Shown here: positions 56,933 through 63,755 of the stretch, one piece after another
Layout of the letters: each line of letters begins with the position of its first letter
How positions within the stretch are numbered: position 1 is the stretch's first letter
Source of the DNA: a phage
Length of the DNA stretch: 64,000 bases
Assembly (NCBI GenBank): GCA_023551395.1
Contig: GCA_023551395.1_3945.1
Strand: one strand, 5' to 3'
Notes under the pieces: generated by a model
The model's input: only the letters and a program-made list of their open reading frames with translations
Databases searched by the model: none
Told to the model about the DNA's origin: nothing
Translations under genes and position numbers: made by a program

Positions 56933-57253
56933 ATGAGCAAAGTTTATAACACTCGTAAATTACAGATTTTCGTACTGTGCCAGTTTATGGCTAAAGAATA
57001 TAACTTCTACTATTGTGGCACAGGATTCATTAGTGACGATGATGGCTCGTATCTACCATTCAAAGAGGCTGTAAAACTCTTCAATGAAGAGAAAAGCTCT
57101 AAGAAAGATATTGAAAAGGTTAAGCTAACCTACAGCAAGAAAGATAAGAAGATTATCTGCCTAGATAACTTTGTAAAAGTTACTGGAGAAGCAAAAGAGT
57201 TTATGGATGAGAGTGAGATTTCATTCACAAGCATCTTGAAAGTAGCTCAGTAA
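56933..57253 (+). CDS. hypothetical protein
   Basis: 106-aa ORF. Confidence 0.35.
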   Translation: MSKVYNTRKLQIFVLCQFMAKEYNFYYCGTGFISDDDGSYLPFKEAVKLFNEEKSSKKDIEKVKLTYSKKDKKIICLDNFVKVTGEAKEFMDESEISFTSILKVAQ

Positions 57254-57265
57254 ATAGATACTATA

Positions 57266-57295
57266 AGGGAACTGTAAAGGTTCCCTTTTTATTTT
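57266..57295 (+). terminator. intrinsic terminator
   Basis: Stem AGGGAAC/GTTCCCT followed by TTTTTATTTT. Confidence 0.6.
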
Positions 57296-57304
57296 GGAGA
57301 TGAT

Positions 57305-57820
57305 ATGTATCTGTCAAACCTAAAACGTTCTGCTGCAATGTCAGTGTTAAGACTCAGCTTTGAGGAACGTCAAGAGTTCATTGACTCCCACCAATACGAC
57401 CCCTCAAACTCCAATCACATGATTCTCTGGAATCGTGAGAGTACTCGTGAAAGAGCATTATTCCGATATTACCCACACTACACCATAGATAACCTGTATG
57501 AATGTTTTGTTGTGAAGAACACCATTACAGTGCTCAATAAACTCTGTAGATACACAGGCAGTCAATCCTTCACATTAGGCCATCACAAACCTGTTACAAA
57601 GGGTGGTGAGCATCACTGTGCAAACTGGTTTATTCAGACTAAACTTGATAACCAGAAGCAAGGGGATAACCTTCTAAGCACCCCTAAGATGACCTACGAA
57701 GAGCAAGAGAAATATATCAAAAATAATATGCCAGATGTGCTTGACAACAACTATACAGATTTGGCAATATCTCTCCTGTTGAAGTTCGAGACAGTTTATA
57801 GGGCAACTTACAATGGCTAA
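57305..57820 (+). CDS. HNH endonuclease (freestanding, homing-endonuclease-like)
   Basis: HNH-type motif LGHHKPVTKGGEHHCANWFIQTKLDN. Confidence 0.55.
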   Translation: MYLSNLKRSAAMSVLRLSFEERQEFIDSHQYDPSNSNHMILWNRESTRERALFRYYPHYTIDNLYECFVVKNTITVLNKLCRYTGSQSFTLGHHKPVTKGGEHHCANWFIQTKLDNQKQGDNLLSTPKMTYEEQEKYIKNNMPDVLDNNYTDLAISLLLKFETVYRATYNG

Positions 57821-58091
57821 AGAAAAGTGGGAGATTTTACCATTAGTCAGTGAAGGTGGTAATGGTTGTGAGATGTACATGATACGTGGTCATGTTCCAG
57901 AACCAATTGCGCTTGAGATGGTAAACAACTTTACAGATGGTTCTTACAAAGACTTAGGAGAGCCAACTATAAAGCATCAATGGGTAAAACCTGTACCAGA
58001 CAGCACAGGTAACTGTAGTGTACTTTACCACGTTGTAGACCCTGTAAAATGCAAATCTGCAATGGCAGTAACAAACGTAACCTTTGATTGA
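57813..58091 (+). CDS. hypothetical protein
   Basis: 92-aa ORF overlapping neighbours at both ends. Confidence 0.3.
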   Translation: MAKEKWEILPLVSEGGNGCEMYMIRGHVPEPIALEMVNNFTDGSYKDLGEPTIKHQWVKPVPDSTGNCSVLYHVVDPVKCKSAMAVTNVTFD

Positions 58092-58984
58092 GAGACAAAA
58101 CTATGAAAACTGTTATTGAAGCCGTCGTCACCGCACAAGAGAAATTCTTCCACACAGAAAAATTTAATATCATTCAATTCCCATCTGGAGAAATTGGTGG
58201 AAACTTCTCTGAAGATTTTGTTAAGTTTACTGAGCGTAATGCTGGTAAGATTGATAATGTTATACTTACTGTACAGGGATATGACAAAGATACACTGTTT
58301 GCATTGGCTTTGGCTAAGGATGCCGTTGACAGTCTTGTTCCCCAGAAATCAGCGATGAAAACCGTTGTTTTCGGGTTCTTACCAAATGCTCGATATGACC
58401 GCCACATGTTCAAAGGTGATGCAGCAGCACTGAAAGTCTTTGCCAACCTAGTTAATGCAATGGGCTTTGATGCAGTATGTGCTCTTGACCCTCACAGCAA
58501 TGTTGCAGAAAACCTATTTAAGTGCTTTCAGAGCATGAAGCAAAAAGATGTGGCAGTACACTTTGCAAGTGACCCACGCATTGATTTCTTGGTAGCCCCA
58601 GATGCAGGTGCAGCTAAGAAGACTGAAGATGCCGCTAAAGAGGTGGATAAACCATATATCACAATGACTAAGGTGCGAAACCTTAAGACTGGAGAAATCA
58701 CTGGTATGCGAATCCTTGACGATGTTGATTTAACCGATAAAACCGTCATGATTCTTGATGATATCTGTGATGGTGGTCGAACTTTCGTAGAGGCAGCTAA
58801 ACACCTACGTGAAGCAGGTGCAAAACGTGTGGAACTCTATGTAACTCATGGTATTTTCTCTAAAGGTGTTGAAAACTTACTTGACAATGGTATTGACCAT
58901 ATCTACACTACAAACACTTTAGGTGAAGCTAAAGACCGTGGCTTAACACATTATAGTCAAGTTACTGTAGCAACCATTGATTGA
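58088..58984 (+). CDS. ribose-phosphate pyrophosphokinase (PRPP synthetase) family protein; candidate ADPR-pyrophosphate synthetase
   Basis: PRPP-synthetase-family blocks FGFLPNARYDRH, VAPDAGAAKK and PRPP-binding loop VMILDDICDGGRTF...GAKRV...THGIFS, aligning with E. coli Prs from memory. Confidence 0.8.
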   Translation: MRDKTMKTVIEAVVTAQEKFFHTEKFNIIQFPSGEIGGNFSEDFVKFTERNAGKIDNVILTVQGYDKDTLFALALAKDAVDSLVPQKSAMKTVVFGFLPNARYDRHMFKGDAAALKVFANLVNAMGFDAVCALDPHSNVAENLFKCFQSMKQKDVAVHFASDPRIDFLVAPDAGAAKKTEDAAKEVDKPYITMTKVRNLKTGEITGMRILDDVDLTDKTVMILDDICDGGRTFVEAAKHLREAGAKRVELYVTHGIFSKGVENLLDNGIDHIYTTNTLGEAKDRGLTHYSQVTVATID

Positions 58985-59031
58985 AACTTTATAGGGGCTT
59001 GAAAGACCCATTTTGAGAGAGAGATTAAAAG

Positions 59032-60813
59032 ATGACTAAATCACTTTATGCAGTACCAGCAGGTTTAAACGCGGATGCTTACAAATCTGGCCATGTTTAC
59101 CAGTACCCTAGTGCAACAGAATACTTGATGTTCAACCTGACACCACGTAGTGACAAATGGTTTAACAGCCCCTTAGCAATTGATGGTGTAGTAGCTTTTG
59201 GTATTCAACGTTTCGTTAAAGATTACTTGATAGACCACTGGAACGCCACTTTCTTTGAACGTGATAAAAAAGAAGCCATTGATGAAATCTTAGAAGTCAT
59301 GAATGGTGTTCTGGGTAAAGATGCTATCGGTCGAGAGCATTGGGAAGCACTTCACGACTTAGGCTATCTACCAGTTGAAGTATACGCTGTAGAAGAAGGT
59401 ACAGTTGTTCCTATGCGTGTCCCAATGATTGTCTTCCAGAATACTGTTTCAGGCTTCCATTGGGTAGCGGGATATCTGGAAGATGCTTTCTCTGCTGAGA
59501 TTTGGAAGGCTTGTACCATTGCAACTATTGCATTGCATTATAAACGCATCTGTAAGAAGTGGGCTGACCTTACTTGTGACAATGACTTGCATTTACCTTA
59601 CCAGTGCCATGACTTTGCTATGCGCGGTATGTCCGGCTTTACTGATGACGCATTTAACGCTGTAGGTCACTTAACCAGCTTTAAAGGAACTGATAGTTTC
59701 CCTGCTGTTTATACAGCTAAACGTATCTATGGACAGTCCTACCCAATCTCTGATATTGGTAGCTCTGTACCAGCCACTGAACACTCTGTAATGTGTGCAA
59801 ACATTGCTTGGGAAGGCGGTAATGAATTGATTGAAGAAGAAAGACGCTTTAAAGGTGAGTTACAAACCTTCCGCCGTTTCTTAACAGAAACTTACCCAAC
59901 TGGTATTGCAAGCATTGTTTCAGATACTTATAACTTCTGGAGAACTGTGTCAGAAATCTTACCAGCACTCCGCAAAGAAATTATGGAACGTGACGGCAAA
60001 CTGGTAATTCGTCCTGACTCTGGAGACCCTGTACATATTGTCACAGGTTATAAAGCAATCCACTTAGAGTGTGCTAAGAAGGCTTATTACGAACACCTAA
60101 GCAAGCTGGAAGCCAGCGACACAATGTTGAATGCTGTCCTGAACATGAAGCTTGAGAACATCAACTATGGTATTGCTGGATGGCTACTGTCAGAAGGCTA
60201 CGAAATGGTTGTTGACAGAGAAGATTTTGAAGCTGCTGATACGGTGCTATTGAAGAATACTTATATGGTTGGCTCTGCAAACGTTGTAACACGTCCTGTA
60301 GCGGAGATTGATGGAGCTATTAAGACACTGTATAACATCTTTGGAGGAACTATTAACTCTAAGGGTTTTAAGGTACTGGATGAACACATTGGCCTTATTT
60401 ATGGTGACTCTATCACACTGGAACGTGCAAACGAAATCCTGAAGCGTCTGTATGAAATGGGTTTTGCAAGCTCTAACGTAGTGTTTGGCGTAGGCTCTTA
60501 CACTTACCAGTACATGACTCGTGACACCTTTGCATTTGCTGTTAAAGCAACTCTTGCAAGCATTGGTGGTAAAGAGATTATGCTTGCAAAAGACCCTAAA
60601 ACAGATAGTGGTGTTAAGAAGTCTGCTTTTGGTGGTGTAGCACCTATGTGGGATGGTGATAAGTTGAAAGCTGTAGATGGCTATGGATTCCAGAGCTTTG
60701 CAGATGTACTTGAACATCCAGCTTGTGCTCTACGTTTAGTCTTTAGTGACTCTGAGCAGTACGGTTACACATCTCTTGGTGATATTCGAAATAATATTGA
60801 CAAGCAGCTTTAA
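59032..60813 (+). CDS. nadV: nicotinamide phosphoribosyltransferase-family protein (NadV/Namat-like)
   Basis: NAMPT-family blocks CHDFAMRGMSGF...HLTSFKGTDSF, SVPATEHS and IRPDSGDP, aligning with human NAMPT from memory. Confidence 0.85.
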   Translation: MTKSLYAVPAGLNADAYKSGHVYQYPSATEYLMFNLTPRSDKWFNSPLAIDGVVAFGIQRFVKDYLIDHWNATFFERDKKEAIDEILEVMNGVLGKDAIGREHWEALHDLGYLPVEVYAVEEGTVVPMRVPMIVFQNTVSGFHWVAGYLEDAFSAEIWKACTIATIALHYKRICKKWADLTCDNDLHLPYQCHDFAMRGMSGFTDDAFNAVGHLTSFKGTDSFPAVYTAKRIYGQSYPISDIGSSVPATEHSVMCANIAWEGGNELIEEERRFKGELQTFRRFLTETYPTGIASIVSDTYNFWRTVSEILPALRKEIMERDGKLVIRPDSGDPVHIVTGYKAIHLECAKKAYYEHLSKLEASDTMLNAVLNMKLENINYGIAGWLLSEGYEMVVDREDFEAADTVLLKNTYMVGSANVVTRPVAEIDGAIKTLYNIFGGTINSKGFKVLDEHIGLIYGDSITLERANEILKRLYEMGFASSNVVFGVGSYTYQYMTRDTFAFAVKATLASIGGKEIMLAKDPKTDSGVKKSAFGGVAPMWDGDKLKAVDGYGFQSFADVLEHPACALRLVFSDSEQYGYTSLGDIRNNIDKQL

Positions 60814-60823
60814 AAGTATATGA

Positions 60824-60848
60824 TAAGAGGCTCCTACGGGAGCCTTTT
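60824..60848 (+). terminator. intrinsic terminator
   Basis: Stem GAGGCTCC/GGAGCCT with TACG loop followed by TTTTT. Confidence 0.65.
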
Positions 60849-60866
60849 TAATTTCTGGAGAAGACT

Positions 60867-61202
60867 ATGAAAATCAAAGAAATGAACATCAACATTGTCT
60901 TAGAAGAACGTTGGGAGAACATCAAGAAGCCTGAAGATGGCCATAAGTTTCTTAACAAAATTTTAGTAGCAGCTAAAGAAGAACTAACTGGCAAGGTCGC
61001 AGCAGCAATTACAATAAAGGTCTGTGTAAAAGGTCTTCCAGATAATCACCAATTTGCACTTGACGAGTTTAAAGAAAGCTTCTACAATCCAAACAAACAG
61101 ATGCTTGAAAGTAACTTTGCAGTGTCTACAAGTATCGTCCATGACAGAAGCTTTATCCTTTACAAGAATATGAGAGGTGAGTCATGCAAGCATATTGGAT
61201 AG
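60867..61202 (+). CDS. hypothetical protein
   Basis: 111-aa ORF after terminator. Confidence 0.35.
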   Translation: MKIKEMNINIVLEERWENIKKPEDGHKFLNKILVAAKEELTGKVAAAITIKVCVKGLPDNHQFALDEFKESFYNPNKQMLESNFAVSTSIVHDRSFILYKNMRGESCKHIG

Positions 61203-61360
61203 AAATTTTACTGTCACTTGGTAGTGTAGCAGTATTTGTCTACCTCCTTTGTAAGTACTTTGCAGAGCACAAAAAATGTGACTACTGTAATGGAGAGGGG
61301 TACATAAGGGCAGGTTGTTGCCCTATGTGTGGTGGTTCTGGTAAAATGTTTAATAAGTAA
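61184..61360 (+). CDS. small membrane-anchored protein with double CxxC zinc-finger
   Basis: 58-aa ORF not in the ORF track (below size cut-off): hydrophobic N-terminus then CDYCNGEG...CCPMCGGSG; GAGAGG ribosome-binding site. Confidence 0.35.
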   Translation: MQAYWIEILLSLGSVAVFVYLLCKYFAEHKKCDYCNGEGYIRAGCCPMCGGSGKMFNK

Positions 61361-61388
61361 TTTAACAGTAAACTAAGAGGAAAGTATT

Positions 61389-63755
61389 ATGCGCATGGTA
61401 AACGACCACGCAGAAGTGATTAAGAGTTCAACTTCTTTAGAGACGTCTCAAGCACAGATTACAATGACACCTGAAATGTTCAGCCTTTTGAGTTCCGGTG
61501 TATACACATTTAAAGAAAGGGCAGTGATTCGTGAACTGTCATGTAACGCAGTAGATGCTCAAAAAGAATCTGGAAAAGAGAACATCCCGTTCCATGTGCA
61601 TTTACCTACTCGATTTGAGCCTTACTTTGAAGTCCGTGACTTTGGAACTGGTTTAACCCATGACAAAGTAATGAGTTTGTATCTGAACTATGGGGCTTCT
61701 ACGAAGAATGACTCTAATGACTACATTGGTGCAATGGGTATCGGCTCAAAGTCACCGTTTGCGATTGCTCAGTCATTCACAGTGTCTAGTTATGTTGATG
61801 GTGTTGTTAATAAGTACTCTGTTTACCTTGAGAATGGTATTCCTCAAGTAACTAAGCTTACTACTAACCAAACAAATGAACCTAATGGTTTAGCTGTACG
61901 TGTGGCAGTTGCTGACCACCGTATTTCAAAGTTCTTTGAAGAGGCTGGTAATGTATACTCATACTTTGCTGTAAAACCAGAGAGTAATGTGGAGTATAAT
62001 GATATATTAGCAGATATGGATGTGATTGCTCGTGAAGAAGGTGTCTATGATGCCATGACTCATAAGCATAGCTGGCGTTCAAGCAGCAATAGAACAGAGT
62101 TTAACGTGGTTATGGGTAATATTGCCTACCCAGTTAATATGGAGGCATTACTTGGTGATGATTTCTTCAAAGTATTACCAGAATTTTTCCGCAGGAGCAT
62201 AGACCTTGTAAACATCTACATGCCTATTGGTTCAGTTGCTATTGCAGCTTCTCGTGAAGCATTGCAGATGAATGACACGACAAAAAATGTTATCATCGAG
62301 GCTACTAAAAAGATAACTGAAGCAATTACAAAGGATGTTATCAAGAAAGTTAATAGTCAACCTACACTCATGGATGCTGCACAGGCTTATGCTGAGTTAC
62401 GCTTGAACTCACGAGAGATGTTTAATGCTGTGTGTCCAAAGCTAGAGTGGGGAGGCGTTAAGCTTGATTCTCTGGAAGAAGAATTGTTAAACATTCGTCG
62501 TGGAATTATCTACGCAGAAGACGGCTCAGTCATTTATGAACGTGACGGTAAAGGCAATATTAAGGTTGATAGGAACGGGAACAATATCCCTAAAGTAGAT
62601 TATCTTTATGACCCAGTTGCTTATGTCAAGTTCAACTCTTTAGAGAGTAAGATTCGTGCAACAGCACTTTCCTACACTCAAGAGGCAAGCATGTTCAATA
62701 TCTTTGGTGCAATGCGTAAAAGCCAAATTGAACAGTTTTTGTTCGTGATTAATGACCGTCGCAATAAAAACGGTACTGAGAAGACTGTAGGACGCAATCA
62801 AATTTTGCGTGGTGCATGTCGAGACTACGCCAGTGAGTCAAATCTGTTTCACAGATACAATGGTATTGTCTTTGTATTCTCTACAGAGAAAGAGCTAGAT
62901 GACTTAATCAATCTGCACAAACTTGATAAAAGCTTGTTAAAGATTGTGAAAATGTCTGATAAGGAACACCATTACCAACGTAAAGAAGCTGTAAGAGGTG
63001 TTGTAAAACTCTGGAAAGCTGTTCCAGCAGAAGGTGTAGCCTCCTACAAAGAGGTGTCAGAGGACTTAGACACAATTGAAGAACCTCAGCTTTACATTAA
63101 GGCAATTGGTGACACAGTTGATGGTGAATGTTTTTGCTCATCTCCAGAAGATGTAGCTAAGTCAGTTGCTAATGTTACAGGTAAGACAGTCTATGTTTTC
63201 CGAAAAGCAAATTGGAAAAAGATACCAGAAGATTGGATTGAAGTAGATGAGAAACTCTTGAACGACAGCTTAACTGATGTTCACTGGATTAACCATAACA
63301 GATATATGACGCGTATCTATATGAATGGTGTCCTTGACCTTACAAGCAGTTGGATTATTGCCAGAAACTTTACGTTTAATAACAGGAAGATTTCTCGCGG
63401 GTATTGTTATTCAAGGGATACAAACAAAACTATCTTCCTAGAAGGAAATGAAGAGGCTGTAGAGGCAATGTTCGGTAAAATCCAATACGTTGCTGCACCA
63501 TTTGCATACACTTATACCATTAGTGTATTGAAAACTTTGAAAGACTGTCTTGACAACGATACAAAGCTTTACAAGAAAATTAAGAAAGCTGGTGACCGTA
63601 TGGTTATTAAGGTGACAAACTATCTTTCAAAAAGAAAACAAGAAAACTTCTTGCTTTCTCATTTGGATTGGAATAAAGTGTCACCCATCGAAGTGAGTAA
63701 GTTCTTAGGCTTTGATGTAAAATGTGTTCCAGAAGGGACTACAATTTACGATTAA
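61389..63755 (+). CDS. rIIA: rIIA-like protein with GHKL-type ATPase N-terminal domain
   Basis: 788 aa; N-terminus has GHKL-like boxes (ELSCNAVDA, RDFGTGL, GAMGIGSKS); size and next gene consistent with an rIIA/rIIB pair. Confidence 0.5.
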   Translation: MRMVNDHAEVIKSSTSLETSQAQITMTPEMFSLLSSGVYTFKERAVIRELSCNAVDAQKESGKENIPFHVHLPTRFEPYFEVRDFGTGLTHDKVMSLYLNYGASTKNDSNDYIGAMGIGSKSPFAIAQSFTVSSYVDGVVNKYSVYLENGIPQVTKLTTNQTNEPNGLAVRVAVADHRISKFFEEAGNVYSYFAVKPESNVEYNDILADMDVIAREEGVYDAMTHKHSWRSSSNRTEFNVVMGNIAYPVNMEALLGDDFFKVLPEFFRRSIDLVNIYMPIGSVAIAASREALQMNDTTKNVIIEATKKITEAITKDVIKKVNSQPTLMDAAQAYAELRLNSREMFNAVCPKLEWGGVKLDSLEEELLNIRRGIIYAEDGSVIYERDGKGNIKVDRNGNNIPKVDYLYDPVAYVKFNSLESKIRATALSYTQEASMFNIFGAMRKSQIEQFLFVINDRRNKNGTEKTVGRNQILRGACRDYASESNLFHRYNGIVFVFSTEKELDDLINLHKLDKSLLKIVKMSDKEHHYQRKEAVRGVVKLWKAVPAEGVASYKEVSEDLDTIEEPQLYIKAIGDTVDGECFCSSPEDVAKSVANVTGKTVYVFRKANWKKIPEDWIEVDEKLLNDSLTDVHWINHNRYMTRIYMNGVLDLTSSWIIARNFTFNNRKISRGYCYSRDTNKTIFLEGNEEAVEAMFGKIQYVAAPFAYTYTISVLKTLKDCLDNDTKLYKKIKKAGDRMVIKVTNYLSKRKQENFLLSHLDWNKVSPIEVSKFLGFDVKCVPEGTTIYD

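What the first reader, a model, noticed from the sequence alone, without database searches (positions are those of the whole stretch)
58088..60813. Prs-like + NAMPT-like gene pair: candidate two-enzyme NAD+ reconstitution anti-defence module
Two adjacent, co-oriented genes encode a PRPP-synthetase-family enzyme (PRPP-binding loop VMILDDICDGGRTF, FGFLPNARYDRH) and a NAMPT-family enzyme (HDFAMRGMSG...FKGTD, SVPATEHS, IRPDSGDP). A salvage route through NMN would also need an NMN adenylyltransferase, and none is recognisable in this 64 kb. The pairing matches what I recall of the recently described phage NARP1 pathway, in which a Prs homologue pyrophosphorylates ADP-ribose and a NAMPT homologue joins it to nicotinamide to regenerate NAD+, countering NAD+-depleting defences such as Thoeris, DSR and SIR2-type systems. 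The conventional reading (PRPP synthesis plus NMN formation to boost the nucleotide pool) cannot be excluded from sequence alone.
Basis: partly seen in the sequence, partly recalled or inferred. Interest (0 to 1): 0.85.

Follow-up and report, generated by a model that had tools for sequence, protein, structure and literature searches.

The report
Known phage NAD+ rebuilding operon (NARP1)

Summary
Two co-oriented ORFs 47 bp apart encode a Prs-family protein (58103-58984, 293 aa from the likely ATG) and a NAMPT-family protein (59032-60813, 593 aa).

The window is a Felixounavirus genome. The two proteins are 98% identical (288/293 and 583/593) to bas63_0079 and bas63_0080 of Escherichia phage JohannRWettstein (Bas63). 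Deleting that operon is what led Osterman et al. to define NARP1 (Adps + Namat).

The NAMPT-like protein carries the published Namat selectivity signature (GSYTYQYMTRD, K42-W43). True Nampt enzymes lack it. All catalytic residues are conserved, and so is the catalytic lysine of Adps (K190). dN/dS against Bas63 is 0.03-0.04.

No NMNAT, Nudix, Macro (Adpp) or RyR domain was found among 63 window ORFs. This is therefore the plain two-gene NARP1, not NARP2 or NARP1-AP.

The only item not described in the papers I read is an ~85-residue insertion in this lineage's Namat. It folds confidently as a small alpha/beta domain with no structural match.

The parts
58103..58984 (+). adps: ADP-ribose pyrophosphate synthetase (Prs-family), 293 aa. 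The mechanical ORF start is the TTG at 58088.
   Evidence: It is 288/293 identical to bas63_0079 and 32% identical to the biochemically characterised SPbetaL1 Adps. dN/dS against Bas63 is 0.041.
58670..58672 (+). Codon of Adps K190, the catalytic lysine.
   Evidence: It aligns with K162 of SPbetaL1 Adps, the residue whose K162A mutation abolished NAD+ reconstitution. It also aligns with the KRR-loop lysine of E. coli Prs and human PRPS1.
58751..58792 (+). Adps phosphoribosyl-binding loop ILDDICDGGRTFVE (residues 217-230).
   Evidence: E. coli Prs has VLVDDMIDTGGTLC here and SPbetaL1 Adps has IIVDDLSSFGGTFI.
59032..60813 (+). namat: nicotinamide ADP-ribose transferase (NAMPT-family), 593 aa.
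   Evidence: It is 583/593 identical to bas63_0080. The best PDB sequence hit is the Namat crystal structure 9w5w/9w5x at 431 bits, against about 143 bits for human NAMPT. The AF2 model has pLDDT 91.7, and its best fold match is 9w5x with TM 0.94. dN/dS is 0.034.
59140..59184 (+). Namat selectivity-clamp loop (SCL), residues 37-51 TPRSDKWFNSPLAID, with K42-W43.
   Evidence: The alignment to 9w5x places K42 opposite SPbetaL1 R40. The paper states that when Lys occupies this position the next residue stacks on adenine, as in Bas63 Namat.
60493..60525 (+). Namat selectivity-clamp helix (SCH) motif GSYTYQYMTRD, residues 488-498.
   Evidence: [quoted passage not shown] Controls: SPbetaL1 Namat has GSFTYQYNTRD, H. 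ducreyi NadV has GAQTYQRNTRD and Xanthomonas Nampt has GGALLQKVDRD.
60061..60312 (+). Lineage-specific insertion of about 84 residues in Namat (residues 344-427). It is predicted to be a small alpha/beta domain of unknown role.
60825..60848 (+). Terminator-like hairpin 12 nt after the namat stop codon; probable 3' end of the transcription unit.
   Evidence: 10-bp stem with 5 G-C pairs, followed by a T-run.
57265..57287 (+). Upstream terminator-like hairpin. The stretch from here to 60848 holds four genes: 57305-57820, 57813-58091, adps and namat.
   Evidence: Co-transcription of the two upstream genes is inferred only from the lack of another terminator-like site.

Best explanation
This is the two-gene NAD+ reconstitution pathway 1 (NARP1) of a Felixounavirus phage, orthologous to Bas63 gp79-gp80.

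A host defence such as SIR2-HerA, Thoeris, DSR1/2 or SEFIR cleaves NAD+ into ADP-ribose and nicotinamide. Adps, a Prs-family pyrophosphokinase, then transfers pyrophosphate from ATP to the terminal ribose of ADP-ribose to give ADPR-PP. Namat, a NAMPT-family transferase, uses its adenine-binding clamp to select ADPR-PP over PRPP and replaces the pyrophosphate with nicotinamide. This yields NAD+ directly, without NMN or an NMN adenylyltransferase.

Shown here by computation: orthology, conserved catalytic and selectivity residues, purifying selection, and absence of NMNAT, Macro and RyR partners. Shown elsewhere by experiment on the 98%-identical Bas63 operon: the anti-defence phenotype, the partial NAD+ rescue, and ADPR-PP in infected cells. 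Shown in vitro on the SPbetaL1 homologues: the two reactions themselves. Inferred: that the window's own proteins behave the same way.
For: - The proteins are 98% identical to bas63_0079/0080, with the same gene order and neighbours (nrdD/nrdG upstream, rIIA downstream).
- Deleting Bas63 genes 79-80 cut plaquing about 20-fold on SIR2-HerA cells. NAD+ depletion was less severe with the wild-type phage. [quoted passage not shown] ADPR-PP (m/z 720.010) appeared only with wild-type phage plus the defence system.
- SPbetaL1 Adps gave no measurable product with the canonical Prs substrate but made ADPR-PP from ADPR + ATP. SPbetaL1 Namat made only NAD+ when given ADPR-PP and PRPP together.
- The Namat SCH signature and the SCL K-W pair are present, and real Nampt enzymes lack them.
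- Every catalytic or NAD+-contact residue of SPbetaL1 Namat has an identical counterpart or, at three backbone- or stacking-type contacts, a conservative one: F195, R198, D221, A248, H251, R327, D329, G458-D459, G488-S489, T496-R497-D498.
- Adps K190 corresponds to K162.
- None of the 15 substitutions relative to Bas63 touches these residues.
- dN/dS is 0.03-0.04.
- No NMNAT or Nudix domain was found.
Against: - Nothing was measured on this phage itself.
- The purified-enzyme work used SPbetaL1 proteins, which are only about 32% (Adps) and 38% (Namat) identical, because Bas63 Adps did not purify well.
- No Adps-specific residue signature turned up in the papers read or the PDB search, and the closest PDB hit for Adps is an ordinary Prs (4twb, 70 bits). 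Adps identity therefore rests on orthology, not on a pocket test.
- Namat keeps NMN-forming activity with PRPP in vitro.
- This lineage's Namat carries an extra domain of unknown role.
Confidence: 0.93

Rival explanations
1. Conventional salvage: the Prs-like enzyme makes PRPP from ribose-5-phosphate and the NAMPT-like enzyme makes NMN, which host NadR or PncC-dependent routes turn into NAD+. The pair would boost the nucleotide and NAD+ pool whether or not a defence is active.
For: Automated family models give exactly these names: TIGR01251 and NF006629, both above their cutoffs. All deposited annotations say the same. [quoted passage not shown]
Against: [quoted passage not shown]
- ADPR-PP, not extra NMN, was the operon-dependent metabolite, and no excess NAD+ was made without a defence system.
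- SPbetaL1 Adps gave no product with the canonical Prs substrate.
- The protein fails every Prs equivalog cutoff in NCBIfam, for example 113 bits against 296.
- The Namat adenine clamp is present.
Confidence: 0.04
2. The pair is a NARP1 operon in sequence but serves mainly a housekeeping role for the phage. It would recycle ADP-ribose produced by non-defence NAD+ consumers during infection, and would not act as an anti-defence device.
For: The operon sits in the nucleotide-metabolism block (nrdA/B, nrdD/G, thymidylate synthase, DHFR, dNMP kinase). It is strictly conserved across 229 phage records that cover at least 80% of the region. NARP1 homologues also exist in bacterial chromosomes.
Against: The Bas63 deletion mutant was compared with wild type on cells without a defence system as the control, and the reported defect was on SIR2-HerA cells. 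ADPR-PP was not seen without the defence system.
Confidence: 0.03

Closest known systems
NARP1 operon of Escherichia phage JohannRWettstein (Bas63), genes bas63_0079 (Adps) and bas63_0080 (Namat); Osterman et al., bioRxiv 10.1101/2024.02.11.579819 (published in Nature in 2024, from my own knowledge)
   Same: Same genus (Felixounavirus), and the same neighbours apart from one gene (below). The two proteins have the same lengths, are 98% identical and carry the same clamp residues.
   Different: There are 5 + 10 conservative substitutions, none at a functional residue. The window lacks the small gene bas63_0081 that follows namat in Bas63. DNA identity is about 95%.
NARP1 of Bacillus phage SPbetaL1 (Adps WIT26982.1; Namat WIT26983.1, PDB 9w5w/9w5x), the biochemically and structurally characterised pair
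   Same: Same two-gene order. The same catalytic Lys in Adps. The same Namat catalytic core and SCH motif, and a fold TM-score of 0.94.
   Different: Identity is only about 32% for Adps and 38% for Namat. The SPbetaL1 genes abut, whereas here there is a 47-bp spacer. SPbetaL1 uses R40 as the stacking residue where this protein uses K42-W43. SPbetaL1 Namat lacks the 84-residue and 15-residue insertions.
NARP2 of Vibrio phage KVP40 (Nampt/NadV + Nmnat/NatV)
   Same: A NAMPT-family enzyme encoded by a phage and used to restore NAD+ against depleting defences.
   Different: NARP2 uses PRPP, goes through NMN and needs a phage NMNAT. No NMNAT is present here, and the enzyme carries the Namat clamp.
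NARP1-AP (Adps - Macro-domain phosphatase Adpp - Namat, Vibrio phage Gary) and RyDEP-containing NARP1 loci (mycobacteriophage DyoEdafos)
   Same: The same Adps and Namat core.
   Different: Pfam finds no Macro or RyR-domain gene in or next to this operon. By inference from the published result, this phage's pathway should fail against aRES, whose product is ADPR-1''-phosphate.
Housekeeping Prs (E. coli b1207) and Nampt/NadV (H. ducreyi 9ke8, Xanthomonas 7yqo, human NAMPT)
   Same: The same folds and the same catalytic chemistry: pyrophosphoryl transfer to C1 of a ribose, then displacement of pyrophosphate by nicotinamide.
   Different: Identity to E. coli Prs is 28%, and the protein scores below all Prs equivalog cutoffs. 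Real Nampt enzymes lack the aromatic SCH residues.

Membership tests
NARP1 (Adps + Namat) | A Prs-family protein belonging to the phage Adps clade. | tested here: met
   It hits PF14572, PF00156, TIGR01251 and phrog_619. It is 288/293 identical to Bas63 Adps, one of the query sequences used to define the clade. No tree was built here.
NARP1 (Adps + Namat) | The Adps catalytic lysine (SPbetaL1 K162, B. subtilis Prs K197) is present. | tested here: met
   K190 aligns with K162.
NARP1 (Adps + Namat) | A Namat homologue lies immediately next to adps in the same orientation (97% of Adps-clade genes have one). | tested here: met
   There is a 47-bp gap, both genes are on the + strand, and a terminator-like hairpin appears only after namat.
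NARP1 (Adps + Namat) | The Namat catalytic core (F189, R192, D215, catalytic His, R306, D308 in SPbetaL1 numbering) is conserved. | tested here: met
   The counterparts are F195, R198, D221, H251, R327 and D329.
NARP1 (Adps + Namat) | [quoted passage not shown] | tested here: met
   The motif is GSYTYQYMTRD at residues 488-498. The Nampt controls lack it (GAQTYQRNTRD and GGALLQKVDRD).
NARP1 (Adps + Namat) | The selectivity-clamp loop supplies an adenine-stacking residue. | tested here: inconclusive
   K42-W43 fits the pattern described for Bas63 Namat (Lys, then a stacking residue). I could not model the ligand to confirm the contact.
NARP1 (Adps + Namat) | Adps converts ADPR + ATP to ADPR-PP, and Namat converts ADPR-PP + nicotinamide to NAD+. 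| not testable with these tools
   This was shown in vitro for the SPbetaL1 enzymes. ADPR-PP was detected in cells infected with Bas63 but not with Bas63 delta-79-80.
NARP1 (Adps + Namat) | The operon counters NAD+-depleting defence systems. | not testable with these tools
   This was shown for the 98%-identical Bas63 operon against SIR2-HerA.
NARP2 (Nampt + Nmnat) | The phage encodes an NMN adenylyltransferase, and the Nampt lacks an Adps partner. | tested here: not met
   No CTP_transf_like or NUDIX hit appeared in 63 ORFs, and none is annotated in bases 58000-87100 of the Bas63 record. An Adps partner is present.
NARP1-AP (with Adpp phosphatase) | A Macro-domain gene (PF14519, PF01661 or PF20016) lies within the operon or within two genes of it. 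| tested here: not met
   The neighbours at 56933-58091 and 60867-61202 gave no Macro hit even at E<=10. They belong to PHROGs of unknown function.
Housekeeping ribose-phosphate diphosphokinase (Prs) | The protein reaches the curated equivalog score of a bona fide Prs model. | tested here: not met
   The best equivalog, NF002095, scores 113 bits against a cutoff of 296. Only the broad subfamily model TIGR01251 passes.

The most novel reading that the evidence does not exclude
Among the homologues listed, the 582-610-aa long-form Namats (those named are from Ounavirinae-type phages) carry an ~85-residue insertion (residues 344-427), and it may be more than a passive decoration. It is an autonomously folding alpha/beta domain with no detectable structural relative. 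It could add a function that the SPbetaL1 enzyme lacks, for example docking Adps so that the hydrolysis-prone ADPR-PP is channelled, or regulating or shielding the enzyme. [quoted passage not shown]
Probability: 0.12. Interest if true: 0.35.

Novelty: already known. Interest (0 to 1): 0.1.

Why it matters
Nothing new is gained for the field, because this operon is the type example of NARP1. The result has practical value in three ways.

- It shows that a reader working from sequence alone can recognise NARP1.
- It gives a quick sequence test that separates Namat from Nampt: the GS-aromatic-x-x-x-aromatic-x-TRD motif together with an adjacent Adps.
- It documents that curated family models (NF006629, TIGR01251) and every deposited annotation still call these genes nicotinate/nicotinamide phosphoribosyltransferase and ribose-phosphate pyrophosphokinase. 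That naming hides an anti-defence function, which matters when choosing Felix O1-like phages for therapy or biocontrol.

Tried and rejected
- **Conventional Prs + Nampt reading.** Rejected on orthology to the tested Bas63 operon and on the presence of the clamp motif.
- **NARP2.** Rejected because no NMNAT or Nudix domain was found.
- **NARP1-AP or a RyDEP-extended locus.** Rejected because the neighbours have no Macro or RyR domain.
- **An Adps-specific pocket signature.** I compared the window protein with SPbetaL1 Adps and E. coli Prs. The phosphoribosyl loop differs (DGGRT, SFGGT and DTGGT respectively), but there is no consistent pattern, no published rule and no Adps structure in the PDB. 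I make no claim from this.
- **Promoter scan.** It gave only weak consensus matches, 18 found against 10.9 expected, and I did not use it as evidence.
Full report
**Observation**

The + strand carries two adjacent ORFs: 58088-58984 (298 aa counted from a TTG) and 59032-60813 (593 aa). The TTG at 58088 overlaps the stop codon of the upstream ORF. The ATG at 58103 has a GAGAG Shine-Dalgarno-like element 8 nt upstream, and it is the start annotated in the closest characterised relative. The first protein is therefore most likely 293 aa.

ORF1 matches Pribosyltran (PF00156, 7e-12), Pribosyl_synth (PF14572, 2.4e-10), TIGR01251 (139 bits, cutoff 113) and phrog_619 (4e-99). It misses every Prs equivalog cutoff by a wide margin, for example 113 bits against 296. 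ORF2 matches NAPRTase (PF04095, 6e-35), NAMPT_N (PF18127), NF006629 (468 bits, cutoff 405) and phrog_448 (2e-202).

**What the window is**

Megablast of 57800-61400 finds 258 phage records, 229 of them covering at least 80% of the region. Almost all are Felix O1-like phages of Escherichia, Salmonella, Shigella and Citrobacter, at 90-96% DNA identity. The window also carries the terminase, capsid and tail block, a family A DNA polymerase, both aerobic and anaerobic ribonucleotide reductases, thymidylate synthase, DHFR, a dNMP kinase and rIIA. This layout is that of a Felixounavirus genome.

**Identity with the published system**

One of the hits is Escherichia phage JohannRWettstein (Bas63, MZ501086.1). 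The two window proteins are 288/293 and 583/593 identical to bas63_0079 and bas63_0080, with the same neighbours.

Osterman et al. (bioRxiv 10.1101/2024.02.11.579819) started from exactly this operon:
- Deleting genes 79-80 reduced plaquing about 20-fold on cells with SIR2-HerA.
- NAD+ depletion was less severe with the wild-type phage.
- Untargeted mass spectrometry found ADPR pyrophosphate only in cells that had both the wild-type phage and the defence system.

The Bas63 protein purified poorly, so the reactions were shown with the SPbetaL1 homologues. Adps makes ADPR-PP from ADPR + ATP and gives no product with the canonical Prs substrate. Namat joins ADPR-PP to nicotinamide to give NAD+, and it makes only NAD+ when PRPP is offered as well. 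The authors named the pathway NARP1.

**Independent sequence and structure tests**

A 2026 structural paper (PMC12774641) defines what separates Namat from Nampt. [quoted passage not shown] There is also a variable loop that supplies a further stacking residue.

- The window protein has GSYTYQYMTRD at residues 488-498.
- In the same PDB alignments, SPbetaL1 Namat has GSFTYQYNTRD, the genuine NadV of Haemophilus ducreyi has GAQTYQRNTRD, and Xanthomonas Nampt has GGALLQKVDRD.
- In the loop, K42-W43 fits the Lys-then-stacker arrangement that the paper describes for Bas63 Namat.
- All catalytic and NAD+-contact residues map onto identical or conservative counterparts: F195, R198, D221, A248, H251, R327, D329, G458-D459-S460 and T496-R497-D498.
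- An AlphaFold2 model (pLDDT 91.7) is closest to the Namat crystal structures 9w5x/9w5w (TM 0.94), ahead of HdNadV and human NAMPT.

For Adps, K190 aligns with SPbetaL1 K162, whose alanine mutant is inactive. Adps is 32% identical to SPbetaL1 Adps and 28% identical to E. coli Prs. Its assignment therefore rests on orthology to Bas63 and not on a pocket signature. No such signature turned up in the papers I read, and the closest PDB hit is an ordinary Prs.

Against Bas63, dN/dS is 0.041 for adps and 0.034 for namat. None of the 15 substitutions touches a functional residue.

**Which variant of the pathway**

Pfam scans of 63 ORFs found no NMNAT (CTP_transf_like), Nudix, Macro or RyR domain. In one search, four of the 29 matched families were not displayed; the table's ordering suggests they were the weakest. 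The immediate neighbours have no Pfam hit apart from one DUF, even at E<=10, and belong to PHROGs of unknown function. Bases 58000-87100 of the Bas63 record, from rIIA onward, have no such annotation either.

This is therefore not NARP2 (Nampt + Nmnat, phage KVP40). It is also not the extended NARP1-AP with the Adpp phosphatase (bioRxiv 10.64898/2026.01.28.702374), and it is not a RyDEP-containing locus (10.64898/2026.05.28.727677). By inference from the aRES study, the plain two-gene pathway should be ineffective against aRES, which leaves ADPR-1''-phosphate.

**Anatomy of the unit**

Terminator-like hairpins lie at 57265-57287 and at 60825-60848, the second 12 nt after the namat stop codon. 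Four genes lie between them: a 171-aa protein with a weak HNH-like match, a 92-aa protein, adps and namat. Co-transcription of the first two with NARP1 is only an inference. The same gene order is kept in a Felixounavirus whose Adps is 77% identical.

**The one feature not covered by the papers I read**

This Namat is about 100 residues longer than the SPbetaL1 enzyme. The difference comes from an 84-residue insertion (residues 344-427) between the RPDSGDP strand and the GLIYGDS strand, plus a 15-residue insertion at 258-272.

- Among the listed homologues the long forms (582-610 aa), those named being from Ounavirinae-type phages, range down to 46% identity, and the eleven of them that I aligned all carry the large insertion. 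It is missing from the 495-aa homologues in Klebsiella, Cronobacter and other enterobacterial chromosomes, which do carry the Namat motif.
- It is predicted with high confidence both in context and on its own (pLDDT 92, pTM 0.81). The fold has three main helices, a three-stranded sheet and two short helices.
- Five of the ten Namat substitutions relative to Bas63 fall inside it.
- The structural paper aligns Bas63 Namat but does not mention an insertion.

Its role is unknown. I rate a distinct function as unlikely, at about 0.12.

**Verdict**

The system is already known; it is effectively the type operon of the family. Interest is low (0.1), despite the intrinsic appeal of the biology.

Noticed in passing
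window 60061-60312 (Namat residues 344-427); also 59803-59847 (residues 258-272): This lineage's Namat has an ~84-residue insertion that folds confidently as a separate small alpha/beta domain. It has no sequence or fold relative in Pfam, PDB or BFVD. There is also a 15-residue insertion. Both are absent from the crystallised SPbetaL1 Namat and from the enterobacterial chromosomal homologues.
   Followed up: yes
window 57305-57820 and 57813-58091: Two genes of unknown function (171 aa, phrog_3500, with a weak HNH-like match to phrog_2214 at E 2e-4; and 92 aa, phrog_4726). They overlap each other by 8 nt and the second ends 11 nt before the adps ATG. They lie with NARP1 between the same pair of terminator-like hairpins. 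The order is conserved in a Felixounavirus whose Adps is 77% identical (L005).
   Followed up: partly
window 60797-60848: A near-consensus sigma-70-like promoter (TTGACA-16-TATGAT, 11 of 12) overlaps the last codons of namat and abuts the terminator-like hairpin at 60825-60848. This suggests a compact terminator/promoter junction ahead of the next gene (60867-61202).
   Followed up: no
L001 6066-6410 (bas63_0081), compared with window 60814-60866: Bas63 and several relatives (hits H8, H9 and H13, each aligned in two pieces) carry an extra gene of about 345 bp right after namat. The window lacks it. Phages ekra and TH10 have an insertion of about 470 bp in this region, annotated in ekra as an HNH homing endonuclease.
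   Followed up: no
PHROG matches of window 59032-60813: Besides the full-length family phrog_448, there are separate PHROG families for the N-terminal half (phrog_16547, residues 1-320) and the C-terminal half (phrog_15800, residues 268-593). In some relatives namat is therefore annotated as two ORFs, either split or frameshifted.
   Followed up: no
proteins P0067, P0070, P0082 and P0114: Chromosomes of Klebsiella, Cronobacter, Erwinia and Kosakonia encode 495-aa homologues that are about 47% identical to the window's Namat. They carry the Namat motif (GSFTYQYNTRD or GSYTYQYNTRD) but are annotated as nicotinate phosphoribosyltransferase. One cluster has more than 1200 member sequences. They are probably bacterial NARP1 of the kind noted in PMC12774641. 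I did not check their neighbourhoods.
   Followed up: no
window, one of the 33 ORFs listed (not localised): The phage encodes a deoxynucleotide monophosphate kinase (PF21448, 5.6e-21). PMC12774641 describes a phage dNMP kinase as the trigger of the NAD+-depleting Kongming (KomABC) defence, which NARP1 counters. The phage may therefore carry both a trigger and the antidote.
   Followed up: no
GenBank GU169904.1 (hit H22): The record named Staphylococcus phage SA1 holds this Felixounavirus region at 94.5% identity over the full 3.6 kb. This looks like a mixed or misattributed record, not a real staphylococcal phage locus.
   Followed up: no
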